Positions 1-55,358 of a DNA stretch of 64,000 nt are shown here, one piece after another; positions within the stretch are counted from its first letter, which is position 1, and every line of letters starts with the position of its first letter. The notes under the pieces are model-generated. The model was not told the DNA's origin and did not search any database. It saw only the letters and a list, made by a program, of their open reading frames with translations. Source of the stretch: Elusimicrobiota bacterium (GTDB lineage Bacteria > Elusimicrobiota > Elusimicrobia > UBA1565 > UBA9628); assembly GCA_036676805.1 (NCBI GenBank), contig JAKFCD010000074.1, positions 40,072-104,071 on the forward strand, read 5' to 3'. Both the position numbers and the translations under genes were made by a program.

Positions 1-1160
1 TTCGTCTTGAAGAACTTCTCGAACTTCTGGTTGGAGCGCGCCGTCGCGATGGTCGAGTTGACCAGCAGCTTGAAGCCGCGGCCGACAGGCACGGCGAGGT
101 CGAAGAGGAAGTTGTCCTGTTCGAGGACCATCGCCTCGCCGAGATGGGTCCCCGCCGCATCCTGCGCGCGCCGCGAAAGATATTCGCGGCGGGTGTTGAG
201 GTAGGCGATCGCGAGCTCGACCTTGCGGCGGCCGAGCGTGAAGGCCGCGCGCGGCTGGAGGGAGCGCTCCTCGTAAGAGTAGTAATCGCTCGTGTAGCGC
301 ATCGTCTGGGCGTCGAAGTGGTTCTGATTGCTGTCGAGGCGCGTCCAGGAGCCGTTCAGATCGACGTATACGCCGCTCTCGGCGCCGAGGCGCCAGCCCC
401 GGCCGAGCGAGACGGCCGCGGATATAAGCCGGTCGGAGCGTCGCCGCGCCGTCAGGGAGCCCGACTCCTGGACGATGTTCTGCTCGGGATAGCCGCGGTC
501 GGTCAGGTTGACGACCAGGCGAGTCTTGACCCCCGGGATCGCGAACGGGAAGGCGGCGATGCCGGTCCAGGACAGGTTATTGGTGTCGAGCGTGCGTCCC
601 GAGGCCTGCTCGCGGCCGAGCCCCTGGCCCTTGACGCTGGACTCCAGCGAGCGGAAGTTCGGGAACTCGATGCGATACCAGTCCAGCGAGAAGCCGGCCG
701 TGACCGCCTCCGCGACGGCGTACTCCGCCTCGAGGCCGAGGGAAGGCTTGCGGAAGTCGAAGAGCCCCTTGCCCCATTTCTCGTCGTTGGTCTCGCGCAG
801 GAACTCCCACCGGTAGCCCGCCAGGGGCTTGAGCTTGAGCTTTCCGCGCCGCCAGACGCTCTTGAGGCGCAGGGAATGGCTCATCGAATCCTGGAACAGC
901 TGCCCGCCGCTGCCGAGGTCGGCGATGGACTGCGTGCCCTGGTAGGCGAAGGCGTAGGTCGGGATCAGGCCCCAGGTCTCGGAGAATTTCACGGCGGGCG
1001 TGAACTGCAGGCTCGCGTTGCCGTTCCAGGAGGTGGACTTGCCGTCCTGCAGGACTTGCCCGAGCAAAGCGGTGCCGCCGAAGACGGGGACGAACTCGGC
1101 GGCGCGCGCCGGTCCCGCCGCGGCGAGCGCGGCCGCCAATAGAAGAAGGGGGCGATTCAT
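1..1160 (-). CDS. outer-membrane beta-barrel protein, N-terminal part (the gene runs off the left edge of the window)
   Basis: ATG at 1160..1158 overlaps the TGA of the upstream gene (ATGA). Translation starts MNRPLLLLAAALAAAGPARAAEFVPVF, a signal peptide. Hand translation of 540-600 in the same frame gives GRTLDTNNLSWTGIAAFPFA with strong GC3 bias. The + ORF 144..1142 is its codon-aligned antisense shadow. It is absent from the ORF table because there is no stop inside the window. Confidence 0.6.
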   Translation of the reverse strand, partial: MNRPLLLLAAALAAAGPARAAEFVPVFGGTALLGQVLQDGKSTSWNGNASLQFTPAVKFSETWGLIPTYAFAYQGTQSIADLGSGGQLFQDSMSHSLRLKSVWRRGKLKLKPLAGYRWEFLRETNDEKWGKGLFDFRKPSLGLEAEYAVAEAVTAGFSLDWYRIEFPNFRSLESSVKGQGLGREQASGRTLDTNNLSWTGIAAFPFAIPGVKTRLVVNLTDRGYPEQNIVQESGSLTARRRSDRLISAAVSLGRGWRLGAESGVYVDLNGSWTRLDSNQNHFDAQTMRYTSDYYSYEERSLQPRAAFTLGRRKVELAIAYLNTRREYLSRRAQDAAGTHLGEAMVLEQDNFLFDLAVPVGRGFKLLVNSTIATARSNQKFEKFFKT

Positions 1161-2092
1161 CGCTCGCGGGGTCCTTTTGCGCCGCTCGGCGTGCCGAAGC
1201 GGTAGGTGATCGCGAAGAGATGCGAGCCCGCGATATCGCCGCCGGGGCCGAAGGCGTAATCGGCCTCGACGGGCCCGAAGCGGCCGCCCACGCCGACCTT
1301 GAGGCCGGAGAAGCGTCCCGCGTCGGGAGTCTTGGTGTTGAGGCCGGCGCGAAAGGCGACGGAATTGTCATCCCCGGAGAGGCGCGCCCGGTATTCTCCG
1401 CCGAGGGCCACGTGGAACGGGGCATAGGCGGGGGCGACGAGGTCGGCGACGACGCTCCAGCCCGGGCTCGGCCGCCAGGCGCCGCCGAAGGCCGCGCGCG
1501 CGGGCAGGGGGTTGGACTCCGACTCGAACTTGAGGCCGCCGCCGAGGTTGTGCCCCGAGGCGCCGACGGCCCAGTCGTCGCCGAGGTCGTATTGCGCGCC
1601 GAGGTCGAAGGCGGTCGCGCGCGCGGCGTCCACGATCTTGGACTCGACGCGCTTGATCGTCGCGGCCAGCCGCAGCTTCTCGCCGGCCGTCGTGCCGTAG
1701 CTCAAGGCGTAGACGGTGTCGCTGGGGCTGAAGCCGCCGGTGAGCGCGCCGCCGTCGTCGCGGCCCTCGAGGGTGCCGTAGCCGATGTGCCGGTAGGCCA
1801 GGCCGAAGCGGTGGACCCCGAACGCCCCGCCGTAGGCCAGGTGGTCGGCGCCGATGCCGTCGCCCAGGATCGAGTGGGTGAAGTACGCCTCATGCGCCGC
1901 GACGCCGTTGAGCGCGGCCGGATTGGTCGTCAAGGCTCCGGCTCCGGAGGCGCCGGCCTGGCCCGCGTCGCCCATGCCGGCGGCGCGGGCGTCGGGCTGG
2001 GTGTTGAGGAATTCGGCGGTCGCCAAGCGTCCCGCCGCCCGGGCCGAGAGGGCCGGGACGAAGAGCAGAACGGCAAAAAGATATTTCCTCAT
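1157..2092 (-). CDS. PorV/PorQ-like (UPF0164/FadL-superfamily-like) outer-membrane beta-barrel protein
   Basis: 311 aa with a signal peptide (MRKYLFAVLLFVPALSARA). The N-terminal motif ARAAGMGDAGQAGASGAGALTTNPAAL resembles the conserved PorV/PorQ-family motif and is shared with the 43845..45224 paralog. The sequence is Gly/aromatic-rich and beta-strand-like. The start overlaps the upstream stop and the stop overlaps the downstream start, both as ATGA. Confidence 0.6.
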   Translation of the reverse strand: MRKYLFAVLLFVPALSARAAGRLATAEFLNTQPDARAAGMGDAGQAGASGAGALTTNPAALNGVAAHEAYFTHSILGDGIGADHLAYGGAFGVHRFGLAYRHIGYGTLEGRDDGGALTGGFSPSDTVYALSYGTTAGEKLRLAATIKRVESKIVDAARATAFDLGAQYDLGDDWAVGASGHNLGGGLKFESESNPLPARAAFGGAWRPSPGWSVVADLVAPAYAPFHVALGGEYRARLSGDDNSVAFRAGLNTKTPDAGRFSGLKVGVGGRFGPVEADYAFGPGGDIAGSHLFAITYRFGTPSGAKGPRER

Positions 2093-5000
2093 CTTTGCAC
2101 CGCGAACTTGATCGTGCGCCGCCCGCCGGCCCCTTCGACGACGGCGAGATAGACGCCGCTGGCCAGCGCGCGCCCGTCCCGGTCGGTGCCGTTCCAGTTC
2201 AGGACCTGGCCCGCGGCGTCGGCGTCGAGCTCCTTGAGCAGGCGCCCCGTCGCGGTGAAGATCTTGATCTTCGCCCCCGCGGGCAGGCTCGAGAGCTTGA
2301 TGTTCACGTGCCCGCGGCTCGGCCGGAACGGGTTGGGGAAGACGAAGCCCTCCGCGACCGAGGCTCCGGGGGTCTGCGCGACGATCTGAAACAGCGAGAA
2401 ATGGTCCGTCGTGCCGACGACCTGGCGCGTCGCCGTGTCGGCCGCGCTGTCGAGCACGACCCAGCCGGTGGCCGCGTCGTAGCGGGCCAGGCGCAGGTGA
2501 TCGGGGTTGACGCCCGCCACGGCGGCGGGGGTGTAGCCGATCTTGATCGTCACCGGGCTCGCGGGCTGAAGGCCGCCGGCGGTGACCGAGATCGTCACGC
2601 CGAGGGCGCTCAGGCCGGGCCGCGCCGGCAGCGCCGGGACGGCCGAGGCGCCGGGCACGGTCACCGAGATCGTCGCGGGCGAGGCGAAGCCTCCCTGGGG
2701 CACGATGACCTCCGCGGAGGTGCCGCCCGCGAGCGCGGTCGTGATGGTGGCCGTGGCGCCCGCCGTCAGGCTGACGAACGCCGGCGCGCCGAGGGCGTAG
2801 ATGCCGTCGGGGTCGGAGACCTCGGCGGTGACCACGCCGGTGACGGAGTCGATCGCGGTCACGCCGTCGATCACCTGCTCGAAGACGCTCGATGCCTGGT
2901 TGAGCTTGAAGATGCGCATGACCGACAGCGGAACCAGGATCGACTGAGCCCCGTAGGCGCCGACGCTGATGCTTCCCGAGGTGACCACATAGGGCATGCT
3001 GACCGTGACGAGCCTGCTGCCCGCGCCGGCGGCCGTGGTCGGGCTCGAGTCGCGCACGGCCGAGAGCTTGAGCACCGTGGTCGAGACGAAGGTGTTGGCC
3101 GTCGCCGCGAACGCGGCGGTCGTGAGCGCGAGGTCGGCGGCCGGCAGCTCGTCGCGGCCCTGGATGCCCAGGCGGACGGCGAAGCCGTAGGTGTTGGCCG
3201 GAATGTCCGCGCGCAGTAGGGGATTGGCGAAGTTCACGACCGCTCCGCCCGCCGAGGTGACGAGCACGGTGGAATAGACCGTCGTGTCCCGCGCCAGGCT
3301 GCCGAGCGAGGCGCGCAGGAGGTTGGCCTGGGCGCTGAGGCTGTTCGTCGAGGAGAAGAAGGCCGTGGTCTGGCCGAAGGCGTCGGTGACCGCCTGGGTC
3401 GACGTCACGGCGGAGACGACCGAGCCGTTGACCAAGGACAGCGAGACGACGCCCGAGCCGGTCGCCACGGAGAAGGTCGCCGTCGAGTTGGAGACGGGGT
3501 TCGAGAAGCCGTCGAAGATCGTCGCGGTCAGCACGCTCGGCACGCCGGCGATGCTGGACTGGGGGTTGGCGAGCAGGGTGATCGAGGCGGGAGTCCCCGC
3601 GCCGACGACGGCGCTGTAGGTGGAGCGCCCGACGACGGACGCGCCGGTGTCCGAGGCGTTGATCAGGATGGCCTCGGCTTTCGTGTAGGTCTGGTTGGCG
3701 ATCGTGACGACGCCGTTGGCCGGCATGTTGACGTTCGTGACGCCGAGCACGCCCGCGCCAGCGAGGAGCGGGTTGCCCGCGTTGAGCGCCGAGAGCGATA
3801 TCGTCGCGGCGTAGCCGACGACCTGGACGCTCGACGCATCGACGGCGCGCACCGTCATCGAGAACGGGACTCCGGCCTGCGCTCCCGTGGGGACCGTGAC
3901 GATGAAGTGGTCGGGGCCCTGGATCGTCAGCGGGATCGAGCGGCCGTTTTTGCCGTCGGATGAGCGGCTGGCCTTGATGTCGATGTCCTCGACCTTGTTA
4001 TAGGTCTGAGCGGAAATCTGGAAACGGCCCGCGGTGAAGGCTCCCGTGACGTTGGTTCCAAGCGAGCCCGTGCCCTGGACGTTCGTGCCGGCGAACAGGG
4101 CGACGAGGTTCACGCCGCTCTCGGTATAAGAGGACAAGCGGTGGTTATAGGAGTTCATGGCCGTGATCGTGCTGACGAAGGCCACGCCGACCGACACGGG
4201 CACCGTCGGGACCGAGACCTCGTAATGGTCGACGCGGTTGCTCTCGATCAGGAAGAAGCTCGTCGCGGCGGGCACGCTCAGCGGCACGAAGGTGACCTGA
4301 CCCGTGAAGTCGTCGAACGTGTCGTAGGCGGTCATTATCGATCCCAGCCGCAGGGTGAAGCTCGCCCGGCCGGAGGCGTCCGTCACCGCTCCCGCGAAAT
4401 CACCGGTGCCTCCGATCGCCGGATCCATCGCCAGCTTCTCGAACGCCGCGCCGCCCGCGCGCGTGAAGCTCGAGACCGCGACGGGCACGTTCGGGACGGG
4501 GTTGCTGAAGGCGTCGAGCACGGTGACCGTCATCGTGGCGTAGCGCAGTTCCGAGTCGACCGACGACGAGGACCTGTCGACGGTGAAGCTCGCGGCGCGG
4601 ATCTCCCGCGTGCCCGCGGTCTGGTCGGGTCGCTGGGGAACGCTGACGGTGTGCGACGAGCTGAAGTTGCCGTAGGCGGCGAAGGTGTGAGCCGCGCTGA
4701 AAGCGCTGCTCAGGATGTCTTGACGGATCGTGAAGACGGCTATTCCAAGCGAGCTCGTGGGCGCGCGGCCGATCGAGGCGAAGGCGCCGTCCCACCGTGA
4801 ATAGGTCGTGATCGCGCCGAAGTTCTGCGAGTTCAGGCCGACGGGGATCTGCGGCAGCAGGGCCCCGGCCGCGTCGCGGACCGTGACCGTGGCGGTGATC
4901 ACGCGCATCGAGCCCTGCATCACGGGCGGGCCCGTGGCGACGGTCACCGTGGCGACGCGTTCCTCCCGCAGCACGATGGTCTGGTCGGGGAAGCTCAGCA

Positions 5001-7332
5001 CGCGCAAGGTCAGCGTTGAGGCCATGGCCGCATAGGCGGTCGGATCGACGCCCTGCAGGAATTCCTGGACGAAGAAGCTGGCCTGGCCCGAGGCGTTGGT
5101 CGCCGTGGTAAAGCCGACGGCGGTGGGCGTGATGGTGATGGGCGCCGGAGAGGCGGAGAAGTCGAGGGCGACCGGCACGTCGGGAACGACGGCGCCCAAG
5201 GAATCGCGAAGAGTGATCGTCACCGTCGAGATCCGGGCATAGTTGGAGCCGCTGATCTCGATGCCGGCCTGACCCGTCGAGAACTCGACGGTGGCGACGC
5301 GGTTCTCCCTCATCACGACCTGCTGCGGCGCCGAGCCGAGGCAAGCGACCGTGTGCGTCACGGCGTAGACCGCGTAGTTGTCGTTGTTGAGGCCCGCGAT
5401 GTCGTCGCCGAAGACGATCGCGGCCTGCCCCGAGCCGTTCGTCGTCCAGAAGACCTGGCTCGGCGACGCCGTCATGCTCGTCGAGCCGGGATACGGCGTG
5501 CCGGGCGCGCGCGAAATGCAGGGAATGTTGGACAGCGGCGCCGAGAGCGAATCCCGGACCGTGAAGGTCATCGTGGAGAAACGCACTTTTCCCGCCGCGC
5601 CCGCCAACGCGGACGGCGTCGTGGAGACGGAGACGGATGCGACGCGCGATTCCCTCAGATATAGGGCCTGAGAGGCGACGCCTGGGGTCGTGAAAACGAC
5701 CGTCGACACGACTCCATCGAGTTTGTCGGCCGTATAGCCGGCGGCGAACTCATGCTTGACGATGAAATCCGCCTGGCCGGCCGTATCGGTCAACAGGAAG
5801 CCGGTCGCGGAGGGGGAGATGGTCGGATTTGAAACGGTGCCGGGCGTGGTCGCGAAGTGATTGAGCTCGACGATGACCCCCGAGGATACCGCCGCTCCGC
5901 CGGCCTTCGTCACCGAAACGGTCGCGGTCGAGTACCAGAAGCCCGTCGCGCCGGAGATGGTCGCCGAGGCCGCGGCGGTGGATACGGCCAGGGCGGCGGC
6001 CTCGCTGTTCTCGAAGGCGAGTATCTGGCTCCCGTTGTGAAGGAAAACCCGGTTTCCCGGGGCGGGCACGGGCTGGCCGCTGAAGCAGGCGCTCGTGGAG
6101 ACCAGCACGTCCCATTGAAGGCTGCCGTTGGAAGCGTCGAGCGCGGCCATGCGGGTGCAGGTCCCCGCGCCGCTGCAGGCCGGCGTGGTTCCCGCGCAAT
6201 AAGTGAAATAGACGGATGTCCCGGCGGCCAAGGTGGGGGGGCCGATCGTGTTGACGGCGGCGGGCGCGCCGCCGGAGCCGGCGTCGTGCGTCCAGAGGGT
6301 GGCTCCCGTGTTGTCTATCTTGTAAATGCGCCCGTTGATGCCGGCGTTGCTCACAGCCGCGTAGGTGTTGAGCGCGGTGTCGGAGAGAAGAGACTGCGTA
6401 AATAACACGCTGCCGGAGCCTAGATCGAGGTCGCACTTGCGCCAGACCAGCGCGCCGCCCTGCGTGAAAGCGGCGAAGTGCTTGTTGCCCGTGGCATGCG
6501 CCGGGCATTCCGAGCTGAAATTAGCCTCGATGACGCTGAAGCTGTTGTCGCCGCGGAAGGAATAACCGAGCGACTTCGGCCCCACGATGGCCTGTGCCAC
6601 GGAAATGTCGGAAGCCGCGCCGGTCGCGGGGTTGTGGCATTCAAGGGAAAATACGCCGTTGCCCGACGAATTGCATATTCGGGAGAAAGTCGTGTCGAAG
6701 AAAATGGAGCCCCGTCCCAGACCGGAGATATGGCCGTCCGTATAGGACATCAGCGGCGTCAGATTCGGCGTGTATGCATACCCGTTGAACTGGGACGCGC
6801 CGAGGCTTGGGATGAGGGTCTCATCGCCGTGTGAGACGTGAATATTCCCATCGTTGGAGATCTTGACGGCCCCGCCTCCCCCGGGATTGGTGCCCGTGGT
6901 CCCCGCCGTGGCGGAGGAGACGAAGGTCACGGCGCCCGATCCGGCGGTGTTGTAGGCATACACGGCCGTCGGGCTGCTGACATAAACGCGCGAGTTGTCT
7001 CCTACCGCCGGGGAGCCCCAAGAGTCGCTGCCGCCGACGACTTCGTTGGCGGTCCATTTGACCGAGCCGTCGGGATTGAGCGCGAAGAACGCGGCGCGGC
7101 CTCCGATGTAGAGCGTCCCGTCGGAGCCGAGCACCACGCCCATCTTGGAGCGCGGATTCACGGCCGCGCCCGCGTATACCCAGCTGACCTTCGGATAGAC
7201 CACTCCGGAGAGCGTGGTGGTGCTGTTGTTCTGCGGATTTTGGCGCGTCATGGGCCACGCCGAATTATCCGGCCCGGCCGCAAACGCGGCGCCCGGGGCG
7301 AACAGGGCCAGCGCGAGGAGGAGCTTCCTCAC
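2089..7332 (-). CDS. giant secreted surface protein: N-terminal PQQ/BamB-like beta-propeller, more than 8 Ig-like (Big/invasin-type) repeats, and a T9SS-type (Por_Secre_tail/FlgD-Ig-like) C-terminal domain
   Basis: 1747 aa with a signal peptide (MRKLLLALALFAPGAAFAAG). The N-terminus carries repeated YIGG...LNPDGSVKW and VYVSS...YAYN propeller-like motifs. The middle carries repeated ~100-aa units with RVATV.V and RD..G..LP.VPV patterns. The C-terminus FVFPNPFRPSRGHVNIKLSSLPAGAKIKIFTATGRLLKELDADAAGQVLNWNGTDRDGRALASGVYLAVVEGAGGRRTIKFAVQR matches the type A T9SS CTD consensus. Confidence 0.8.
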   Translation of the reverse strand: MRKLLLALALFAPGAAFAAGPDNSAWPMTRQNPQNNSTTTLSGVVYPKVSWVYAGAAVNPRSKMGVVLGSDGTLYIGGRAAFFALNPDGSVKWTANEVVGGSDSWGSPAVGDNSRVYVSSPTAVYAYNTAGSGAVTFVSSATAGTTGTNPGGGGAVKISNDGNIHVSHGDETLIPSLGASQFNGYAYTPNLTPLMSYTDGHISGLGRGSIFFDTTFSRICNSSGNGVFSLECHNPATGAASDISVAQAIVGPKSLGYSFRGDNSFSVIEANFSSECPAHATGNKHFAAFTQGGALVWRKCDLDLGSGSVLFTQSLLSDTALNTYAAVSNAGINGRIYKIDNTGATLWTHDAGSGGAPAAVNTIGPPTLAAGTSVYFTYCAGTTPACSGAGTCTRMAALDASNGSLQWDVLVSTSACFSGQPVPAPGNRVFLHNGSQILAFENSEAAALAVSTAAASATISGATGFWYSTATVSVTKAGGAAVSSGVIVELNHFATTPGTVSNPTISPSATGFLLTDTAGQADFIVKHEFAAGYTADKLDGVVSTVVFTTPGVASQALYLRESRVASVSVSTTPSALAGAAGKVRFSTMTFTVRDSLSAPLSNIPCISRAPGTPYPGSTSMTASPSQVFWTTNGSGQAAIVFGDDIAGLNNDNYAVYAVTHTVACLGSAPQQVVMRENRVATVEFSTGQAGIEISGSNYARISTVTITLRDSLGAVVPDVPVALDFSASPAPITITPTAVGFTTATNASGQASFFVQEFLQGVDPTAYAAMASTLTLRVLSFPDQTIVLREERVATVTVATGPPVMQGSMRVITATVTVRDAAGALLPQIPVGLNSQNFGAITTYSRWDGAFASIGRAPTSSLGIAVFTIRQDILSSAFSAAHTFAAYGNFSSSHTVSVPQRPDQTAGTREIRAASFTVDRSSSSVDSELRYATMTVTVLDAFSNPVPNVPVAVSSFTRAGGAAFEKLAMDPAIGGTGDFAGAVTDASGRASFTLRLGSIMTAYDTFDDFTGQVTFVPLSVPAATSFFLIESNRVDHYEVSVPTVPVSVGVAFVSTITAMNSYNHRLSSYTESGVNLVALFAGTNVQGTGSLGTNVTGAFTAGRFQISAQTYNKVEDIDIKASRSSDGKNGRSIPLTIQGPDHFIVTVPTGAQAGVPFSMTVRAVDASSVQVVGYAATISLSALNAGNPLLAGAGVLGVTNVNMPANGVVTIANQTYTKAEAILINASDTGASVVGRSTYSAVVGAGTPASITLLANPQSSIAGVPSVLTATIFDGFSNPVSNSTATFSVATGSGVVSLSLVNGSVVSAVTSTQAVTDAFGQTTAFFSSTNSLSAQANLLRASLGSLARDTTVYSTVLVTSAGGAVVNFANPLLRADIPANTYGFAVRLGIQGRDELPAADLALTTAAFAATANTFVSTTVLKLSAVRDSSPTTAAGAGSRLVTVSMPYVVTSGSISVGAYGAQSILVPLSVMRIFKLNQASSVFEQVIDGVTAIDSVTGVVTAEVSDPDGIYALGAPAFVSLTAGATATITTALAGGTSAEVIVPQGGFASPATISVTVPGASAVPALPARPGLSALGVTISVTAGGLQPASPVTIKIGYTPAAVAGVNPDHLRLARYDAATGWVVLDSAADTATRQVVGTTDHFSLFQIVAQTPGASVAEGFVFPNPFRPSRGHVNIKLSSLPAGAKIKIFTATGRLLKELDADAAGQVLNWNGTDRDGRALASGVYLAVVEGAGGRRTIKFAVQR

Positions 7333-8972
7333 TGGAGGACCCCGGCCTTGATCAGAATCTTGGGCTCGACGACGAAGTCGATGCTGCGCCCGCCGAACTC
7401 GGAGGCGGTGATCTTCTGCTGGAAATTGTGCTCGATGAGCTTCTCTTTATACGTCGCCCCGCTCGTCACCCCGCTGAAGTCCGCCTTCGTGGCCACCCGC
7501 CCCTCGTCGGAGACGACGAAGAAGTCGTAGGTCTCGAAGGAGTTGTCCGCCGTGTACGTGATCGTGACGCGGTCGTGGAAGGTGCCGGCGCCCGACGGCT
7601 TGCTGATGACGCTGGTCCGCAGCGCGTCCTCGCACGCCTGCCCCGCGCAGACGTTGGTCCCGGCGCCGTTCCAGACGCGGGTGTTGATCCCGCCGACGGC
7701 GTAGTCATAGGAGGTGATGTTCGCCCCGGCCGCCGGCTGCCAGCCGAACTTCTCGGTCCCGTTGATCTTGTAGGAGTAATTGTCGAATAAGGTGGTCCAG
7801 AAGGCGGTCCCGGCCGTCTCCGTGGTGAAGGTGTTGGTCTGCCCGTCATAGGCGACCCGGTCGGCCGCGAGCGGCGCGTTGACGAGGTGCCCGCCGATGC
7901 CGGTCTCGATGACGGTGTCCCGGGTGTTGGAGCGGCCGGTCTCGAACTCGGTGACGAAGTACTCGGGAGCGGCGCCGGACTTGCCCGTCAGGTGGCGCGT
8001 CGCCGCCGTCAGGTCGGCCGGCAGGTCCTGGTTGAAGCGGGCCTGGTAGTAGAAGTAGTCGAAGCGATCGGCGCGCTCGGAGAGCGCTACGAGCTTGAAT
8101 TGGTCGGCGGCGGGGCGCACGACGTACTCCTCGAGGCGCACGCGCACGCCGAAGGCGTCGATGAGGGTCTTGCCCTCCTGGTATTCGGCCCGGCGGGCCT
8201 CGACGGCGGCGGCGGCCTGGACGGCCTCCTTGGACTGCCCCAGAGCGACTTCCCGCTCGACCTCCTTGCGGAACTCGTCGTCGACCGAGAGGGGGGCGCT
8301 CGTTTCCTTCTGTTCCTTCGGTTTGCGGACGGCGGCGATGATCTTGGGCGCCGGAGCGGCTTTCGGGGCGGGAGCCTTGGCGGGTGGGGCGGCGGCGGCG
8401 CGCTCGGCCGCGCGCTCGAGGGGCTGGTCGGGCAGGACCCGGATCGAGCGCATCGTGCGCCCGTCGCCGAGCTCGATCTCCTCGCCGAGCAGGGTCTTGA
8501 CCCCGACGACGCCCTCGCTGACGTCGATCAAGGTCGCGCGCGAGGCCGCGACGTCCACCGAGAACTGCGTGCCCCGCACCGCGCACACCGCGGTCGGGGT
8601 GCGGACCTGGAAGCGGCGGTTCAGGGACTTGGTGACCCAGGCCTTGAGCGTGCCCAGAGCGAGCTTGAAATGGGCCGGGCCGCCGGCCTCGGCCGAGGAC
8701 TCCGCCTCGAATTCCGAGGACGCCCCCAAGAGAATCTTCGAGCCGTCCCGGGTCTCCAGGGCGGCCGTCGACCCGCCTCCCGTGCGCACCTTGTCGCCTT
8801 TCTGCACGCGCCAGGGAACTTCGTTGACCCGGCTCCAGGACTGGGTGCGCGGCAGGAAGACCTCGACGTTGCCCTGCCGGGCGACGATGTCGACCTGGGC
8901 CCGGGAGGCCGTCGCGATGATAAGAGCGGCGATCGCGGGGAGGAGGACCCGCAATCTGAGGGGCGAATTCAC
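7329..8972 (-). CDS. FecR-domain secreted protein (N-terminal FecR fold, Ala/Pro/Lys-rich linker, C-terminal domain of unknown function)
   Basis: 547 aa with a signal peptide (MNSPLRLRVLLPAIAALIIATASRAQV). The FecR-like block reads WRVQKGDKVRTGGGSTAALETRDGSKILLGASSEF...AVRGTQFSVDV. Its stop overlaps the start of the giant protein (ATGA). Confidence 0.65.
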   Translation of the reverse strand: MNSPLRLRVLLPAIAALIIATASRAQVDIVARQGNVEVFLPRTQSWSRVNEVPWRVQKGDKVRTGGGSTAALETRDGSKILLGASSEFEAESSAEAGGPAHFKLALGTLKAWVTKSLNRRFQVRTPTAVCAVRGTQFSVDVAASRATLIDVSEGVVGVKTLLGEEIELGDGRTMRSIRVLPDQPLERAAERAAAAPPAKAPAPKAAPAPKIIAAVRKPKEQKETSAPLSVDDEFRKEVEREVALGQSKEAVQAAAAVEARRAEYQEGKTLIDAFGVRVRLEEYVVRPAADQFKLVALSERADRFDYFYYQARFNQDLPADLTAATRHLTGKSGAAPEYFVTEFETGRSNTRDTVIETGIGGHLVNAPLAADRVAYDGQTNTFTTETAGTAFWTTLFDNYSYKINGTEKFGWQPAAGANITSYDYAVGGINTRVWNGAGTNVCAGQACEDALRTSVISKPSGAGTFHDRVTITYTADNSFETYDFFVVSDEGRVATKADFSGVTSGATYKEKLIEHNFQQKITASEFGGRSIDFVVEPKILIKAGVLQ

Positions 8973-9028
8973 CCGTGAAGTATAAGGGGGGCTTCCGGGG
9001 GTGTCAATGTCGTAAAAGTTACGAGAAG

Positions 9029-9075: not shown

Positions 9076-9276
9076 TTAGAGCTTGACGACGCCGGCGGCC
9101 TTCGGGCCCTTGTCGGTCTGAAGGAGATCGTACTGGACGGCCTGGTTCTCGCTCAAGGAGCGGAATCCGTCGGACTGGATCGCGCTGTGATGCACGAACA
9201 CGTCCGCGCTGCCGTCATCGGGGGTGATGAACCCGAAGCCCTTCTGGTCATTGAACCACTTCACTTTGCCTTGCAT
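9076..9276 (-). CDS. cspA: cold-shock protein, CspA family
   Basis: [66 protein letters not shown] is 66 aa with the RNP1/RNP2 motifs. The true start is the internal Met of the 104-aa table ORF. Confidence 0.95.
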
Positions 9277-9518: not shown

Positions 9519-9980
9519 TTATTTCGCGGTTTGGCGGGCTTTGCGGCGGGCTTCGGCGGCCGCCCAACGCTTCTTCTCGTCCGGCGTTTCCACGAGAAGA
9601 GGCGGGATGGGGGCGGGGCGGCCGTGCTCGTCCACGGCGACCATGGTGACGAGGCAGGTGTTGGTGTGGACCCGGCTGCCGCCGGGCATGTCCTCGGCGT
9701 AGACCTCGACGCCGATCTCCATCGAACTGCGGCCGGTGTGGTTGACCTGGGCCTTGGCGATCAGGAAGGTGCCCACGTGGATGGGGACCAGGAACTCGAC
9801 GCGCTCCATGGCCACGGTCACGCAGGGTTTGCCCGAGTGGCGCATGGCGCACACCGAGGCGGCCTTGTCCACCATCTGCAGGACCTTGCCGCCGAAGACG
9901 GTGCCGTGCATGTTGGCGTCCGGGGGGAACATCAGGTCGGCGACGTCGGAGACGGAGTCGCGTGAGGGCTTAGCGGTCAT
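9519..9980 (-). CDS. acyl-CoA thioesterase (hotdog fold, YciA-like)
   Basis: 153 aa. HGTVFGGKVLQMVDKAASVCAMRHSG...VTVAMERVEFLVPIHVGTFL is typical of YciA-type thioesterases. Confidence 0.8.
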   Translation of the reverse strand: MTAKPSRDSVSDVADLMFPPDANMHGTVFGGKVLQMVDKAASVCAMRHSGKPCVTVAMERVEFLVPIHVGTFLIAKAQVNHTGRSSMEIGVEVYAEDMPGGSRVHTNTCLVTMVAVDEHGRPAPIPPLLVETPDEKKRWAAAEARRKARQTAK

Positions 9981-10754
9981 AGAGTCTCGGCCGGCGGTCC
10001 TCGAAGAGGTCGCAGGCGGGATGGACCTTCTTGTTCTTGGCCGTCCAGGCGTCGATCGTGACGACCGCCGCGGCCGGCTGCTCGGGACCGAGGCGGACGA
10101 GCAGGGTGCCGTTGGGGGAGACCATCTGGGACTGGCCGATGTAGCGCAGGCCGCGCTCGACTCCGACCCGGTTGGCCGTCGCGGAGAAGACCCGGTTCTC
10201 CAGCGAGCGGATCTTCATCCCCTCGGGCGCCCACGGGAGGACCAGGTTCGAGGGGTGGGCGATGATCTCGGCCCCCTTGAGGGCCAGGGTCCGGGCGGCC
10301 TCGGGGAAGAACCAGTCGAAGCAGACCATCACGCCGACCGACACGCCCTTGACCTTCTCGGTCCAGAAGCCCGTGTCGCCGGGCGCGAAGAACTTCTTCT
10401 CGCCGCCGAACAGGTGGGTCTTGCGGTAGACCCGGCTCTTGCCGCCCTGCGCCAGGACCGCCGAGTTGTACAGCTTCGAGCCCGCTTTCTCGGGGAAGCC
10501 CGCGACGATGGCGCAATCGCGGCTCGCGGCGTAGGCGCGCAGCAAGCCGACCAGCGGGCCGCTCGCCGTCTCGGCGCACTTCGCCGCTTCCTTCTTGTTC
10601 TTGAAGTTGTACCCGGAGGCGAAAAACTCGGGAAGCACCCAAAGGTCGGCCTCCTGCCTGTCCATCAGCTCGAAGCACGCCTTGAGGTTCTGCGGCGCCT
10701 TGAGGAACTTCGGCGAATTTTGCACGACCCCGAGTCGAAATTCCATGGCGGCCA
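9970..10754 (-). CDS. carbon-nitrogen hydrolase family protein (nitrilase superfamily)
   Basis: MEFRLGVVQNSPKF...VLPEFFASGYNF...RKTHLFGGEKKFFAPGD...VGVMVCFDWFFPE carries the Glu, Lys and Cys catalytic-triad context. The table ORF starts at a TTG inside the palindromic element, so I prefer the MAAMEF Met near 10754 (within about 3 nt). Confidence 0.75.
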
Positions 10755-10767
10755 TCGTATCAAAAAT

Positions 10768-10839
10768 AGGGGTCAGACCTCCCGTTGTTGCAATGCCGGG
10801 GTCTGACCCCAACAACGCAACAACGGGAGGTCTGACCCC
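10768..10839. promoter_or_regulatory. array of three 13-bp palindromes GGGGTC(A/T)GACC(C/T)C at about 30-bp spacing, with flanking inverted repeats, in a divergent promoter region
   Basis: Copy 1 ggggtcagacctc (10768-10780), copy 2 ggggtctgacccc (about 10798-10810) and copy 3 gaggtctgacccc (10827-10839). Copy 3 is the exact reverse complement of copy 1. tcccgttgttgc and gcaacaacggga form a further inverted pair. The array lies between the divergent nitrilase-family and methyltransferase genes. Confidence 0.5.
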
Positions 10840-10860
10840 TTAAATTTATAGAATCCGCGG

Positions 10861-11682
10861 GTGAGCAAGAAAGAGGCGCTGTCCTGGTGGCGGATGCACC
10901 TCGAGGACGACCCTCGGCGGCCCCACTCCCAGGTCAAGACGCAGATCGACGGCGTGGAGCGCTTCATGCGCCTGGAGCCGCGCTCGCGCGTGCTCGACCT
11001 CGGCTGCGGCTCGGGGCGGCGCACCATCGAGCTCGCCCGGCGGGGCCACCGGGTCCTCGGCGTGGACCCCGACGAGCGCGCCCTCGCCGTCGCGCGGGCC
11101 TCGGCCAAGGGCGAGAAGCTCAACGTCCACTTCATGAAGGCCGACACGCGCGCGATCCCTTACCGCGGCGAGATCGACGCCGTGGTGAGCCTCGACGGCG
11201 CCTTCGGCCAGCTGGCCAACGACCGCGACGACCTGCGCTGCCTCGAGGCCGCGCGCAAGGCGCTGAAGCCCTCCGGGCTTCTCCTGCTCGATACGCTTAA
11301 TAAGGAATGGCTCATGCGCCACTTCGAGCCTAACTACTGGGAGCAGGGCGAGGAGCGCAAGAGCTCGGTCGTGCTCGACCGGATCGGCTTCGACTTCGAG
11401 CGCGGGCGCCTGGACAACCGCCGCGTCATCGTCGACGCCGACGGCACGCGCACCCCTTCGTTCATCAGCGTGCGGGTCTACGCGCTGACCGAGCTCAAGG
11501 CCCAGCTCGAGCGCGCGGGCCTGAAGTATCTCCAGAGCTGGGGCGCCTTCGACGGCTCGGCCTACGGCATGGACAGCGCCCGGACGATCGTGCTGGCCGA
11601 GCGTCCCCCGGAGCGCTCGACGAAGCCCGCCGACCCCGACGAGCCGCCGACCGCGATCCGCATCAAGGGGCGCAAGAGGTGA
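10861..11682 (+). CDS. class I SAM-dependent methyltransferase
   Basis: 273 aa with a GTG start. It carries the VLDLGCGSGRRTIELARRGHRVLGVDPDERAL motif I. Its stop overlaps the next gene (GTGA). Confidence 0.85.
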   Translation: MSKKEALSWWRMHLEDDPRRPHSQVKTQIDGVERFMRLEPRSRVLDLGCGSGRRTIELARRGHRVLGVDPDERALAVARASAKGEKLNVHFMKADTRAIPYRGEIDAVVSLDGAFGQLANDRDDLRCLEAARKALKPSGLLLLDTLNKEWLMRHFEPNYWEQGEERKSSVVLDRIGFDFERGRLDNRRVIVDADGTRTPSFISVRVYALTELKAQLERAGLKYLQSWGAFDGSAYGMDSARTIVLAERPPERSTKPADPDEPPTAIRIKGRKR

Positions 11683-19313: not shown

Positions 19314-19544
19314 TCAGGACGGGCAGCCGCCGCCGCCGCAAGGGCCGCGGCGTCCGCAGGGAGGGCTCGAGGGGGCGCTTTTTCCTTTAGAGGACACCTT
19401 GGGCACGCGGTCGCTGACGCGGACGATCTCGCCGCTCTGTTTATCGTAGCGGTAGGTGCCGGTCGCGGCTTCGTCGGCCGGGGCTTTGCGGGAACGCTTC
19501 GCGGGCTTGGTCGGCATGTTTTTGATTATACCTCGTATTCTCAT
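19314..19544 (-). CDS. small basic protein with a Cys/Gly-rich tail (hypothetical)
   Basis: 76 aa: MRIRGIIKNMPTKPAKRSRK...CGRRGPCGGGGCPS. GC3 is high. Its ATG overlaps the TGA of the GT39 gene (ATGA) and its stop is 6 nt before the aminopeptidase start. Confidence 0.4.
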   Translation of the reverse strand: MRIRGIIKNMPTKPAKRSRKAPADEAATGTYRYDKQSGEIVRVSDRVPKVSSKGKSAPSSPPCGRRGPCGGGGCPS

Positions 19545-21052
19545 CTTCGTTTCGCCCCTTCGGTTGGGCTCTTCGCGCCCAATGAGGTCCCGGCGAGCAG
19601 CGCGGCGACCTGCTCCCCCGTAGCGATCGACACCGCCGGGCCGCCGAGCCAGCGCTTTTCATCGAGCACGACGCAGGGGCCCAGCCGCCGCAGGCGAGCG
19701 CGCTCCAGCACCCCGTTATAGAGGGGCAGGCCGGGATAGTCGACGCCTTCGGCCGCCTCCGCGACGAGAAAGTGCGGGCGCTCGGGCAGATAGTAGCCCC
19801 GCATCGGCAGGTAGTAATAGGTGTCGAGATAGACGAGGGGAAGGCGCCGGTCGGTGCGGCGGATCGAATCGGCCAGGCCGCCCAGCCGGGGATCGACGAC
19901 GAGCCCCGAGATGAAATAGCCGACGGCTCCGGCAAGAACGAGCGCCCCGAGCGTCCGGCGCGCGGCCGAAGCGGCCCGGCCGCGCCGCGAGATCTCGAGC
20001 GCCGCGAGCAGGTAGAGGATCGGGGCGATCGGCGCGAAGTAGCGGGCCTGCGTCACGGGGCGCCCTAAGAAGAGCTCCGCCGCGGCGGTCAGGGCGACGA
20101 AGACGGCCGCGTGCCAGAGCAGAAAGTCGAGCGCGCGAAGCTCCGGCTCGTCGTCCTCGCGCCGGACGAGGCGAGCCGCGGCCAGGGCGGCCAGGGCCAA
20201 AACGAACGCTCCGATCGCGGGCACGAGCCAGGAGGGCAGGAGCAGGCCGAGGTAGGTGACGTCGAAGAACAGGGTTCCCAGCAAGCCGCATAAATGGCGA
20301 AAGGTGAGCGGGTCGCCGACGGCCAGGTCGCCTCGGTGCATGCCGAACTGCGCCATGAAGGATCCGAGCCAGGGCAGGAAGGCCGCCGCGACGCAGGCGT
20401 GCGCCGCGAGCCAGGCGCCCAGCTCCGGCGGCGAGCGCCGCCAGCGGCGCAGCAGCCAGGCCGCGTGGGCGGCGAGGATCAGCGCGAAATAATAATGAGC
20501 GTAGAGCCCGAGGACGGCGAGCGCGGCGTACCCCGCCCACAGCCGTCCCGTCGGGCGCCGCGCGAGCTCCCACGTCAGGAGCGCCTCGCACACGACGATC
20601 AGCGAGAGCAGGGCGTAGACGCGTCCGTCCTGCGAGAAGTGCAGCCAGTAGGACGACGCGGCCGCGAGGGCCAGGGCGATAAGGCGCGCGCGCTCGGGCA
20701 GCAGGCGCCCGGCCAGGCTCCAGAACGCGGCGAGAGCCCCGATCCCGCAGGCCGCGGAGAAGACGCGCAGGCCGATGCGCGGATCGGCGAAGAACGGAAG
20801 CCAGGCGTGCATCAGGAGGGAATACAGGGGCGGGCTGACCTCGAAGCGCAGGAGAAACGAGTGCAGGAGCGGCAGCGGCCGGCTCGCGACGAGCAGGCTG
20901 AGGGCCTCGTCGAACCACAAGGACCGGCTTCCGAGGAACGAGAGGCGCAGGGCGGCGCCGATGACGAGCGCGGCCATCGCCGGGGTGGCGCGAACGCGAA
21001 GGGCGCGGTCGAGGAGGGAGGGGGCGCCGGCGTTCGGCGGGACAGAACTCAC
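19541..21052 (-). CDS. glycosyltransferase family 39 (PMT/ArnT-like, GT-C fold) membrane protein
   Basis: 503 aa with a GTG start and about 11 TM helices. SLWFDEALSLLVA...YSLLMHAW is the typical GT39/ArnT N-terminal loop, including the DE motif. Confidence 0.8.
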   Translation of the reverse strand: MSSVPPNAGAPSLLDRALRVRATPAMAALVIGAALRLSFLGSRSLWFDEALSLLVASRPLPLLHSFLLRFEVSPPLYSLLMHAWLPFFADPRIGLRVFSAACGIGALAAFWSLAGRLLPERARLIALALAAASSYWLHFSQDGRVYALLSLIVVCEALLTWELARRPTGRLWAGYAALAVLGLYAHYYFALILAAHAAWLLRRWRRSPPELGAWLAAHACVAAAFLPWLGSFMAQFGMHRGDLAVGDPLTFRHLCGLLGTLFFDVTYLGLLLPSWLVPAIGAFVLALAALAAARLVRREDDEPELRALDFLLWHAAVFVALTAAAELFLGRPVTQARYFAPIAPILYLLAALEISRRGRAASAARRTLGALVLAGAVGYFISGLVVDPRLGGLADSIRRTDRRLPLVYLDTYYYLPMRGYYLPERPHFLVAEAAEGVDYPGLPLYNGVLERARLRRLGPCVVLDEKRWLGGPAVSIATGEQVAALLAGTSLGAKSPTEGAKRR

Positions 21053-24780: not shown

Positions 24781-24831
24781 GTGAGCTCCTCCGTAACGAG
24801 GAGTACGACACGCCCGGCGGGATAAGGTTCC

Positions 24832-24850
24832 AACTGTTTCCAGAAACAGT
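24832..24850. promoter_or_regulatory. palindromic motif aaCTGTttccagaaACAGt (CTGT-N8-ACAG), copy 1
   Basis: It is located 52 nt upstream of the VIT-VWA start and 27 nt after the anti-sigma stop. It is identical over 18 bp to the reverse complement of 61332..61350. Confidence 0.5.
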
Positions 24851-24877
24851 CGGCGCCGTCCCCGACTCGGAAGGGCG

Positions 24878-26011: not shown

Positions 26012-26538
26012 GCGGATACCTTGTCGAGCAGGACCTTGAGCTTGGCGCGGGCGCGGAACAGGCGCGACTTGACGGTGCCCTCGGCGAGGCCTAAAACCTC
26101 GCCGATCTCGGCGTAGGAGCGTTCCTCGAGCTCGCGCAGGACGACGATGGCCCGGTCGTCCTGATCGAGCTGAAGCAAGGCTTTCTGCACCACGGCGTTC
26201 GTTCCCTCCTTTTCGAGCTCCGTATCGAGCGGGGCGTCGTTTCCTTTCGGCTCGTACACCGGCTCGTCGTCTTCCTCGTTCCCGAACGCCCCGAACGAGA
26301 TCGTCTTCCAGAATCCCCGGCTCTTCTCGGCCCGCACCCGGTTCTTCCAGGTGTTGACCGTGATGGTGTACACCCACGTCGAAAGCTTGCTGTCGCCCCG
26401 GAACTTGGGCAGGGCGCGCAGGGCCCGGATCAGGGCGTCCTGCGCCAGGTCCTCGGCGTCGGAGCGGTTCCCCGTGAGCCGCAGCGCCACGTTGAACACG
26501 AGCTGACTATGTTCCTCGAGGAACTGAGACTCCGGCAT
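26008..26538 (-). CDS. RNA polymerase ECF-type sigma-70 family sigma factor
   Basis: 176 aa. Region 2 reads LVFNVALRLTGNRSDAEDLAQDALIRA. Region 4 reads LRELEERSYAEIGEVLGLAEGTVKSRLFRARAKL. Confidence 0.9.
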   Translation of the reverse strand: MPESQFLEEHSQLVFNVALRLTGNRSDAEDLAQDALIRALRALPKFRGDSKLSTWVYTITVNTWKNRVRAEKSRGFWKTISFGAFGNEEDDEPVYEPKGNDAPLDTELEKEGTNAVVQKALLQLDQDDRAIVVLRELEERSYAEIGEVLGLAEGTVKSRLFRARAKLKVLLDKVSA

Positions 26539-26545
26539 CGGCTGA

Positions 26546-26573
26546 TAGGACCCGGGAGCGGTCAGAATGTTCC
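26546..26573 (-). promoter_or_regulatory. tentative ECF-type autoregulatory promoter (GGAACA, 16-nt spacer, GTCcta) just upstream of the sigma gene
   Basis: The minus strand reads aaaGGAACAttctgaccgctcccggGTCCTAtcagccgATG. It would give a nearly leaderless transcript. Confidence 0.25.
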
Positions 26574-26574
26574 T

Positions 26575-55218: not shown

Positions 55219-55358
55219 GCAACCCGGACAGTGTATATATTTCTAAAACTTGCCCGGACGGGCGCTCTTGCGCTCGCGGCGCAACGGGGCTACAGTCTGC
55301 AGGGAACTTAGCGGCCGCGACGTTGTCCAAATCGCATCCTATGCCCGGTGAGAGCGCC

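What the first reader, a model, noticed from the sequence alone, without database searches (positions are those of the whole stretch)
1..8972. Four-gene ATGA-coupled operon: FecR-domain protein, giant CTD-bearing adhesin, PorV/PorQ-like barrel, second OM barrel
All three junctions (7329-7332, 2089-2092, 1157-1160) are ATGA stop/start overlaps, which implies strict translational coupling of the four genes. One of them is a 1747-aa cargo with a T9SS-type C-terminal domain. It sits next to a PorV/PorQ-like barrel (the family that shuttles CTD cargo in T9SS), a second unrelated barrel, and a secreted FecR-fold protein with no sigma factor. This may be a self-contained surface-display or anchoring module: cargo, its dedicated OM shuttle or anchor, and a periplasmic FecR-like partner. 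I have not seen this arrangement described. It would be notable if the host lacks a canonical T9SS.
Basis: partly seen in the sequence, partly recalled or inferred. Interest (0 to 1): 0.65.

Follow-up and report, generated by a model that had tools for sequence, protein, structure and literature searches.

The report
Four-gene giant surface-protein module, Elusimicrobiota
This is a real four-gene operon, conserved and often multi-copy across the phylum Elusimicrobiota, that pairs a giant surface protein carrying a type-IX-secretion-like tail with its own PorQ-like outer-membrane dock, plus an undescribed barrel and its FecR-like periplasmic partner; this may be a cargo-specific way to mount proteins on the cell surface outside the Bacteroidota.

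Summary
The four minus-strand genes are real. Two junctions are ATGA; the third (7329-7332) is GTGA. The host is an Elusimicrobiota bacterium.

- g3 passes the PorV/PorQ family cut-off (121 vs 90 bits), with PorQ as the best specific model.
- The g2 tail passes TIGR04183 (31.7 vs 23 bits) and matches the PorZ C-terminal domain (5M11) at E 5e-11.
- g1 has a FecR fold but no anti-sigma domain, no membrane anchor and no sigma factor in the operon.
- g4 is a 16-strand barrel (AF2 pLDDT 89.5) with no family assignment.

New findings:
- The four genes travel together in at least 27 complete modules, in five gene orders, often with several modules per genome.
- They resolve into two pairs that co-vary: g1 with g4 (r 0.81) and the g2 tail with g3 (r 0.77).
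- One MAG encodes a natural g1-g4 fusion.
- Among giants from different modules, only the last ~170 residues are conserved.

Best reading: the cargo is held by its tail on a dedicated PorQ-like dock, and the g1/g4 pair exports or assembles it. That second step is inferred.

I could not test whether these genomes lack a canonical T9SS, and I found no description of the module in the searchable literature.

The parts
7329..8972 (-). g1: secreted FecR-fold protein, 547 aa
   Evidence: PF04773 61.2 bits against a cut-off of 24. More than 271 homologues, all Elusimicrobiota where a name is given. AF2 pLDDT 81.7.
8433..8894 (-). g1 FecR-fold domain (aa 27-180). It follows a cleavable-looking signal peptide (aa 1-25, 8898-8972).
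8238..8420 (-). g1 Pro/Ala/Lys-rich linker (aa 185-245), predicted disordered
   Evidence: pLDDT below 50 over aa 200-245. The alignment of homologues is 716 columns for a 547-aa query; I infer that much of the excess lies in this linker.
7332..8237 (-). g1 C-terminal beta-rich domain (aa 246-547), with no match in Pfam or the PDB
2089..7332 (-). g2: giant cargo protein, 1747 aa, GTG start, signal peptide aa 1-18
   Evidence: Translation. GC3 0.90.
5923..7278 (-). g2 N-terminal head (aa 19-470), lineage-specific
   Evidence: The fragmented orthologue in L002 hits PQQ_2 and beta-propeller families. The head is found in only 4 loci by jackhmmer. Other modules carry a beta-helix, NHL or CarboxypepD_reg head instead.
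2611..5922 (-). g2 stalk of Ig-like domains (aa 471-1574)
   Evidence: Big_1 46.9 bits against a cut-off of 34.9, in 3 stretches, plus weak MG4 and BIg21 hits.
2092..2610 (-). g2 conserved C-terminal region (aa 1575-1747). The T9SS type-A-like / FlgD-Ig tail proper is aa 1660-1747 (2092-2355).
   Evidence: TIGR04183 31.7 bits (cut-off 23) and a 44.7-bit match to the C-terminus of the PorZ model. FlgD_ig 33.1 bits (cut-off 27). PDB 5M11 PorZ residues 649-756 at E 5e-11. It is the only part conserved among giants of 25 modules.
1157..2092 (-). g3: PorV/PorQ-family outer-membrane barrel, 311 aa
   Evidence: NF033709 121.2 bits (cut-off 90); PorQ 79.1 bits and PorV 37.6 bits, both below their equivalog cut-offs. 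PDB PorV 6h3i at E 8e-4, aligned from the N-terminal motif to the last strand.
1..1160 (-). g4: 16-strand outer-membrane barrel of an undescribed family (401 aa; the last 15 codons lie beyond the window start)
8979..9007 (-). Promoter-like site upstream of g1
   Evidence: TTGACA-17-TATACT, 11 of 12 matches. This is a consensus match only.

Best explanation
This is one copy of a four-gene module, found so far only in Elusimicrobiota, that builds and mounts a giant cell-surface protein.

The proposed steps are:
1. All four products are exported by Sec.
2. g3 (PorV/PorQ family) and g4 (a new 16-strand family) insert into the outer membrane.
3. The giant g2 has a lineage-specific head and an Ig-like stalk. 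It ends in a conserved ~170-residue region whose last ~90 residues are a T9SS type-A-like domain. That domain most resembles the C-terminal domains of PorZ and PorU, which are retained rather than cleaved.
4. This tail docks non-covalently on the cognate g3 barrel, as PorZ docks on PorQ. The cargo is therefore held at the surface by a dedicated anchor rather than by a shared shuttle.
5. g1 is a periplasmic protein: a FecR fold, a flexible Pro/Ala-rich linker and a new beta-rich domain. It binds the periplasmic face of g4, forming a two-piece unit with the overall layout of an Omp85/TpsB transporter (periplasmic module plus 16-strand barrel).
6. That unit helps the cargo cross the outer membrane or be assembled in it.

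Shown here: the genes, domains, overlaps, conservation, gene-order permutations, co-variation and the fusion. Inferred: the two physical pairings and the localisation. Speculative: that g1/g4 is the conduit.
For: Domain calls.

Host and family range:
- g4 has 48 word-indexed hits and 511 profile hits, and g1 has more than 271 hits. All are Elusimicrobiota where a name is given.
- 130 loci were found in GTDB species genomes, and nearly all of the 80 fetched are labelled Elusimicrobiota (a few carry generic or other labels).

Synteny:
- 27 complete modules occur in five gene orders (g1-g2-g3-g4, g1-g4-g2-g3, g2-g3-g1-g4, g2-g1-g4-g3, g2-g3-g4-g1).
- In 46 of 57 testable cases g1 is directly next to g4; in five more (L002, L006, L009, L010, L074) it lies or is expected elsewhere in the module.
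- 42 of 49 g4 genes in long loci have an ORF of at least 1000 aa on the same strand within 9 kb. Loci that seemed to hold only g1-g4 have an ORF of more than 3300 aa running off the locus end.
- Several modules occur per genome, sometimes in tandem.

Pairing:
- Distance-matrix correlations are g4-g1C 0.81 and g3-tail 0.77, against 0.31-0.56 for cross pairs.
- A natural g1-g4 fusion with no internal signal peptide exists (MBD3272334.1, contig seen in 2 samples).

Recognition by the tail: only the last ~170 residues are shared among giants.

Family-level property: five distant g3 proteins all pass NF033709 (148-189 bits) with PorQ as the best specific model. Their cognate tails hit the PorZ and PorU C-termini best.

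Precedent: PorQ:PorZ and PorV:PorU are 1:1 anchoring sub-complexes (PMC5562754). PorP, PorE and a type-B cargo form a complex of barrel, periplasmic protein and cargo (PMC9143113).
Against: - No interaction was tested. Co-variation is inflated by shared phylogeny, and some tandem loci share one g2/g3 partner in the analysis.
- The g4 fold matches ordinary porins as well as it matches TpsB barrels, so it does not point to a translocator. g4 has no POTRA domain and no Omp85 or ShlB Pfam hit.
- The fusion is a single case on a 2.5-kb contig.
- A 16-strand barrel could pass only unfolded chains, and no energy source is evident.
- The tail passes TIGR04183 in only 2 of 6 giants tested, and never passes Pfam PF18962.
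- Five g4 homologues have no g1 nearby. Three of them (L028, L030, L039) sit between unrelated housekeeping genes.
- A canonical T9SS elsewhere in these genomes was not excluded.
Confidence: 0.5

Rival explanations
1. This is ordinary T9SS biology. These bacteria have a full T9SS elsewhere in the genome. g2 is a normal type-A cargo and g3 is a PorV/PorQ paralogue. g1 and g4 are accessory or unrelated neighbours.
For: TIGR04183 and NF033709 are both above cut-off. PGAP would name these proteins as T9SS-related. I could not scan whole genomes.
Against: - The literature I could search states that the T9SS is confined to Bacteroidota (abstracts of PMC11611037, PMC8564354 and PMC10994853). None of it links the T9SS to Elusimicrobiota.
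- In every module complete enough to judge, each cargo has its own g3, g1 and g4, with several modules per genome. A shared secretion machine would not need that.
- g3 never reaches the PorQ or PorV equivalog cut-offs.
- No T9SS family was hit among the ~30 window proteins scanned.
Confidence: 0.15
2. g1 and g4 do not translocate anything. They form a second anchor, plug or envelope tether that stabilises the giant protein or its dock. Export uses BAM or some other general route.
Against: This leaves unexplained how a 1700-3300 aa folded protein crosses the outer membrane. The structural resemblances are weak and cover only part of the FecR domain.
Confidence: 0.2
3. g1 and g4 are a FecR/FecA-like cell-surface signalling or uptake pair that merely shares an operon with an adhesin and its anchor.
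For: The FecR domain is genuine. In L002 an ECF sigma / anti-sigma pair lies about 1 kb upstream.
Against: - g1 has no cytoplasmic anti-sigma domain or membrane anchor.
- g4 has no TonB-dependent receptor, plug or STN hits.
- The sigma pair in L002 is divergent and is absent from the window and from other loci.
- The link to a giant protein and g3 holds across five gene orders.
Confidence: 0.07

Closest known systems
PorQ-PorZ (and PorV-PorU) sub-complexes of the T9SS attachment complex of Porphyromonas gingivalis
   Same: A surface protein is held by its C-terminal domain on a PorV/PorQ-family barrel in a 1:1 complex (PMC5562754). Here g3 scores best against PorQ among the specific models, and the cargo tails score best against the PorZ and PorU C-termini.
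   Different: - In Bacteroidota there is one PorQ and one PorV per cell, the genes are not adjacent to cargo genes, and export needs SprA/Sov and PorKLMN.
- Here each cargo gene has its own barrel gene next to it, and the host phylum has no described T9SS.
- g3 is below the PorQ and PorV equivalog cut-offs.
Type-B CTD cargo with cognate PorP/SprF-like barrel and periplasmic PorE (for example SprB-SprF, PG1035-PorP-PorE)
   Same: A cargo-specific outer-membrane barrel anchors a very large adhesin, as in the PorP-PorE-PG1035 complex of barrel, periplasmic protein and cargo (PMC9143113). That such barrels are usually encoded next to their cargo is from my own knowledge.
   Different: The tail here is type-A-like, not type B (CHU_C 12.9 bits). 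g4 gives no PorP/SprF hit. g1 is a FecR-fold protein, which does not match PorE as I recall it (not compared here).
Two-partner secretion (TpsB/TpsA, for example FhaC/FHA, CdiB/CdiA)
   Different: - There are no POTRA domains, no ShlB or Bac_surface_Ag hit, and no N-terminal TPS domain in the cargo.
- The conserved recognition region is C-terminal.
- Porins match the g4 fold equally well.
FecR/PupR-type anti-sigma regulators of cell-surface signalling
   Different: g1 has no anti-sigma domain or membrane anchor, and the operon has no sigma factor or TonB-dependent transducer. The FecR fold is followed by a new 300-residue domain.

Membership tests
T9SS type-A CTD cargo (TIGR04183 / PF18962) | C-terminal domain scores above the curated cut-off | tested here: inconclusive
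   TIGR04183 scores 31.7 bits against a cut-off of 23, which passes. Pfam PF18962 scores 17.1 bits against 27, which fails. Of five other module cargos, one passes TIGR04183, one scores 22.8 bits and three give no hit. All hit the PorZ and PorU C-termini.
T9SS type-A CTD cargo (TIGR04183 / PF18962) | Host encodes the T9SS translocon and motor (SprA/Sov, PorK/L/M/N) | not testable with these tools
   Whole genomes could not be scanned. None was seen among the ~30 window proteins scanned. The literature places the T9SS only in Bacteroidota.
T9SS type-A CTD cargo (TIGR04183 / PF18962) | CTD is removed by the PorU sortase and the protein is linked to anionic LPS | not testable with these tools
   This needs proteomics. 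No PorU homologue was looked for genome-wide.
PorV/PorQ family (NF033709) | Full-length match above the family cut-off | tested here: met
   121.2 bits against a cut-off of 90, covering profile positions 3-326 of 326. Five distant module homologues score 148-189 bits.
PorV/PorQ family (NF033709) | Orthology to PorQ (NF033711) or PorV (NF033710) | tested here: not met
   PorQ 79.1 bits against 220; PorV 37.6 bits against 250; Pfam PorV 13.3 bits against 27.
FecR-type anti-sigma factor | FecR periplasmic domain | tested here: met
FecR-type anti-sigma factor | N-terminal cytoplasmic anti-sigma domain and transmembrane helix | tested here: not met
   The FecR fold starts at aa 27, directly after a signal peptide.
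FecR-type anti-sigma factor | Adjacent ECF sigma factor and TonB-dependent transducer | tested here: not met
   The upstream neighbours are a csp gene, a thioesterase and a CN hydrolase; RmuC lies downstream. The nearest ECF sigma factor is 17 kb away.
Omp85 / TpsB transporters | 16-strand barrel | tested here: inconclusive
Omp85 / TpsB transporters | POTRA domain(s) and a Bac_surface_Ag or ShlB profile match | tested here: not met
   No such Pfam or NCBIfam hit at E <= 0.1. The barrel starts right after the signal peptide.
PorP/SprF family (PF11751 / TIGR03519) | Profile match for g4 | tested here: not met
   No hit at E <= 0.1 in Pfam or NCBIfam.
Inverse autotransporters (intimin/invasin) | Big_1 Ig-like array attached to an N-terminal barrel in the same polypeptide | tested here: not met
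   The Big_1 array is present (46.9 bits). However, g2 has an N-terminal soluble head, no barrel, and a C-terminal sorting-type domain.

The most novel reading that the evidence does not exclude
Elusimicrobiota use a previously undescribed, self-contained outer-membrane pathway. Each giant surface protein brings its own two-piece translocator (the FecR-like g1 plus the 16-strand g4, laid out like a split Omp85) and its own PorQ-like dock for a retained T9SS-like tail. The pathway would work without SprA or PorKLMN. If so, the CTD-PorV/PorQ docking pair is older and more widespread than the T9SS itself, and this module may resemble the ancestral state from which the T9SS attachment complex was recruited.
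Probability: 0.3. Interest if true: 0.85.

Novelty: new variant of a known kind. Interest (0 to 1): 0.65.

Why it matters
The T9SS and its CTD/PorV/PorQ recognition are treated as a Bacteroidota speciality. Here the docking pair appears in a deep-branching phylum, in several copies per genome, and in each complete module it is tied to two protein families that have no annotation.

If the module works on its own, three things follow:
- It adds a new way of putting very large proteins on a diderm surface.
- It gives a minimal four-protein system in which CTD-barrel recognition can be dissected.
- It bears on how the T9SS attachment complex arose.

It would also give a function to hundreds of 'FecR family' and hypothetical outer-membrane proteins in Elusimicrobiota genomes. 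These proteins probably shape how these largely uncultured, often host-associated or ultra-small bacteria contact their surroundings.

Tried and rejected
- Literature: five full-text searches combining Elusimicrobia/Elusimicrobiota or Elusimicrobium minutum with type IX secretion, T9SS, PorV, PorQ, FecR, FlgD or sorting domain found nothing on this module.
- The afdb50 library was not available.
- A search from the most distant barrel (P0048) to reach other phyla gave only 3 proteins. Their loci still show a FecR-like protein, a barrel and giant protein(s).
- I looked for a fifth conserved gene. The recurring upstream pair of ~580-aa ORFs is dnaG-rpoD, which is clade synteny and not part of the module.
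- I looked for a second module or another CTD protein in the window and found none. There is only a distant TraF_2-type relative of g3 at 43845-45224.
- I rejected cell-surface signalling, because there is no anti-sigma domain, no sigma factor and no TonB-dependent transducer. I rejected PorP/SprF identity for g4.
- A whole-genome check for T9SS core genes could not be done with the tools and caps available.


Full report
**Observation**

The region 1-8972 carries four consecutive minus-strand ORFs:
- g1: 7329-8972, 547 aa.
- g2: 2089-7332, 1747 aa.
- g3: 1157-2092, 311 aa.
- g4: starts at 1160 and runs off the window.

An identical 7.4-kb Logan contig shows that g4 is 401 aa and is followed by a convergent RmuC gene, so the operon ends there. 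Third-position GC is 0.90-0.94 in all four frames. Each product begins with a Sec-type signal peptide, which can be read directly from the translations.

The junctions at 2089-2092 and 1157-1160 are ATGA. The junction at 7329-7332 is GTGA, because g2 starts with GTG exactly where its signal peptide begins. Four-base overlaps also occur elsewhere in the window (11679-11682 and 62566-62569). They are therefore the normal mark of a tight operon, not an anomaly.

A cspA-like gene lies upstream at 9076-9276. A promoter-like site (11 of 12 matches) sits at 9007-8979, directly before g1. The other upstream neighbours are a thioesterase and a CN hydrolase.

**What the four proteins are**

g1:
- It has a genuine FecR domain (PF04773, 61 bits).
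- The AF2 model has pLDDT 81.7. It shows a signal peptide, a FecR fold at aa 27-180, a disordered Pro/Ala/Lys-rich linker at about aa 185-245, and a confident beta-rich C-domain at aa 246-547.
- There is no anti-sigma domain and no membrane anchor.

g2:
- It has a lineage-specific head, a stalk with Big_1 Ig-like domains (46.9 bits against a cut-off of 34.9), and a C-terminal domain.
- The C-terminal domain passes FlgD_ig (33.1 vs 27 bits) and TIGR04183 (31.7 vs 23 bits). It does not pass Pfam Por_Secre_tail (17.1 vs 27 bits).
- Its best NCBIfam match is the C-terminus of PorZ (44.7 bits). Against the PDB it aligns with PorZ 5M11 residues 649-756 at E 5e-11.

g3:
- It passes the PorV/PorQ family model (NF033709, 121 vs 90 bits, full length).
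- PorQ is the best specific model (79 bits) and PorV scores 38 bits. Both are below their equivalog cut-offs.
- It aligns with PorV 6h3i from the N-terminal motif to the last strand.

g4:
- Its only family hit is a weak OMP_b-brl match.
- The AF2 model (pLDDT 89.5) is a 16-strand barrel.

**Host and distribution**

g4 homologues (48 by word-indexed search) and g1 homologues (more than 271) are all labelled Elusimicrobia or Elusimicrobiota wherever a name exists. A full HMMER profile search of 1.84 billion cluster representatives finds only 511 g4 relatives. A scan of one genome per GTDB species finds 130 loci. Nearly all of the 80 fetched are Elusimicrobiota MAGs from several classes, and several come from the same genome or even the same contig.

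**Synteny**

I used iterated HMMs for the g1 N- and C-domains, the g2 tail, g3 and g4 on all ORFs of the fetched loci.
- 27 complete modules appear in five gene orders: g1-g2-g3-g4 (this window and its clade), g1-g4-g2-g3, g2-g3-g1-g4, g2-g1-g4-g3 and g2-g3-g4-g1.
- g1 is directly adjacent to g4 in 46 of 57 cases with enough flanking sequence. In five of the remaining eleven (L002, L006, L009, L010, L074) g1 lies or is expected elsewhere in the module, and L003 is cut by a contig end.
- The g2 tail and g3 are always adjacent.
- Loci that seemed to contain only g1-g4 have an ORF of more than 3300 aa immediately downstream that runs off the fetched 10-kb flank.
- 42 of 49 g4 genes in long loci have an ORF of at least 1000 aa on the same strand within 9 kb.
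- The recurrent upstream pair of ~580-aa ORFs is dnaG-rpoD, which is clade synteny only.
- The most distant barrels known (25% identity) still sit between a FecR-like protein of 800-870 aa and giant proteins.

**Two pairs within the four**

- Across the 27 complete modules, pairwise distance matrices correlate at r 0.81 for g4 with the g1 C-domain and 0.77 for g3 with the g2 tail. Cross pairs give only 0.31-0.56. No permutation out of 500 reached any observed value. Shared phylogeny inflates all of these values; it is the contrast between pairs that is informative.
- One Elusimicrobia MAG protein (MBD3272334.1, P0319, L089; the contig was seen in two samples) is a continuous g1-g4 fusion. The signal peptide of g4 is replaced by a ~70-residue linker. 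This places g1 at the periplasmic N-terminus of the barrel. It is a single example.
- Other g4 homologues carry unrelated N-terminal extensions of 140-550 residues.
- Among giants of 25 modules, only the last ~170 residues are conserved. The heads differ: a propeller here, and beta-helix, NHL or CarboxypepD_reg elsewhere. Whatever recognises the cargo must therefore read its C-terminus.
- Five distant g3 proteins all pass NF033709 (148-189 bits) with PorQ as the best specific model (102-111 bits). Their cognate tails score best against the C-termini of PorZ and PorU.

**Interpretation**

In Porphyromonas gingivalis, PorZ and PorU are held on the surface by 1:1 complexes with the barrels PorQ and PorV. 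Truncating the PorZ CTD abolishes its surface presentation (PMC5562754; PMC8545088). That these two CTDs are retained rather than cleaved is established knowledge that I did not re-read here.

Type-B cargos bind cognate PorP-like barrels, which in turn bind the periplasmic PorE (PMC9143113).

The Elusimicrobiota module looks like a cargo-dedicated version of that logic. The tail of g2 docks on its own PorQ-like g3, and g1 with g4 forms a second, co-evolving unit of a periplasmic protein and a barrel. My best guess is that the g1/g4 unit serves export or assembly of the cargo across the outer membrane, with a layout that recalls a split Omp85/TpsB transporter.

The status of each part of this model:
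- Shown: the genes, the domain assignments, the conservation, the gene-order permutations, the co-variation and the fusion.
- Inferred: the two physical pairings and the localisation.
- Speculative: the translocator role.

**Rivals**

1. A canonical T9SS exists elsewhere in these genomes and the module is an accessory. I could not scan whole genomes. However, the searchable literature confines the T9SS to Bacteroidota and says nothing about Elusimicrobiota. A shared machine would also not need a private g1/g3/g4 set for each cargo.
2. g1/g4 is a second anchor or envelope tether rather than a conduit. The porin-like fold fits this, as does a weak resemblance of the FecR fold to the RTX-adhesin anchoring domain 5ix9.
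3. g1/g4 is a FecR/FecA-like signalling pair. This is contradicted by the lack of an anti-sigma domain, a sigma factor and a TonB-dependent receptor.

**Comparison and novelty**

- g3 is a member of the PorV/PorQ family, but it is not an orthologue of PorQ or PorV.
- The g2 tail belongs to the T9SS type-A / FlgD-Ig CTD superfamily, with borderline scores.
- g1 shares only the FecR fold with anti-sigma regulators.
- g4 and the g1 C-domain belong to no described family.

I found no description of the four-gene module. I rate it a new variant of a known kind (CTD docking on a PorV/PorQ barrel) with two new components. There is roughly a 30% chance that it is a self-contained, previously unrecognised surface-display pathway.

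**Limits**

There was no whole-genome T9SS check, no complex prediction and no expression or localisation data. Five g4 homologues have no g1 nearby, and three of them (L028, L030, L039) sit between housekeeping genes. The barrel can therefore exist outside the module.

Noticed in passing
window 43845-45224 (-) and 46218-48827 (-): A second, distant PorV-like barrel of 459 aa (TraF_2 PF13729 73 bits; PorV_fam 43 bits, below cut-off; my g3 HMM gives E 1e-17). It lies two genes from (a GH5-like gene intervenes) an 869-aa secreted protein that has an HExxH motif and no Pfam or NCBIfam hit.
   Followed up: partly
window 55143-61322 (+): A 2059-aa bacterial alpha-2-macroglobulin (bMG10, A2M, MG2 and bait-region domains).
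   Followed up: partly
window 22426-26574 (-): An ECF sigma factor (26008-26574), an anti-sigma protein (24878-26377) and an 840-aa VIT+VWA protein (22426-24948) lie in a row. This looks like an envelope-stress or surface module of its own.
   Followed up: partly
window 19541-21052 (-), 34542-36692 (+), 36697-38100 (-), 41694-42773 (+): Three ArnT-like PMT_2 glycosyltransferases and an LptF/LptG permease. They indicate an LPS-containing outer membrane with lipid or glycan modification.
   Followed up: no
window 9076-9276 (-): A cspA-like cold-shock gene with an 11-of-12 promoter match at 9383-9356, immediately upstream of the operon. The same csp-then-module arrangement occurs in L002.
   Followed up: partly
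L089 141-2520: A natural in-frame fusion of the FecR-like g1 to the g4 barrel, without an internal signal peptide (MBD3272334.1, Elusimicrobia MAG GCA_014728305.1). It is truncated by the contig end.
   Followed up: yes
L090 3570-6410 (P0193); also P0191, P0197, P0177, P0184: g4-family barrels with N-terminal extensions of 140-550 residues. The extensions are one or two copies of an unannotated repeat, or an fn3 domain. In L090 a separate FecR-like gene still precedes the barrel.
   Followed up: partly
L028, L030, L039 (about 9920-11200 in each): Low-GC Elusimicrobia carry a solitary g4 homologue between leuA and a GAF histidine kinase, with no g1, giant or g3 nearby.
   Followed up: partly
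L079, L084, L085: Tandem double modules with mirrored order (g2-g3-g4-g1 followed by g1-g4 and, in L084, a 3076-aa giant and another g3). These point to local duplication of whole modules.
   Followed up: no
g4 aa 126-135, 277-284, 376-382 (window about 756-785, 309-332, 15-35): The most conserved g4 motifs (DExWGKGLFD, SNQNHYDA, SNxxYEK) fall in loops that the AF2 topology places on the extracellular side (L3, L6, L8). That is unusual unless the loops fold into the lumen or contact a conserved partner.
   Followed up: no
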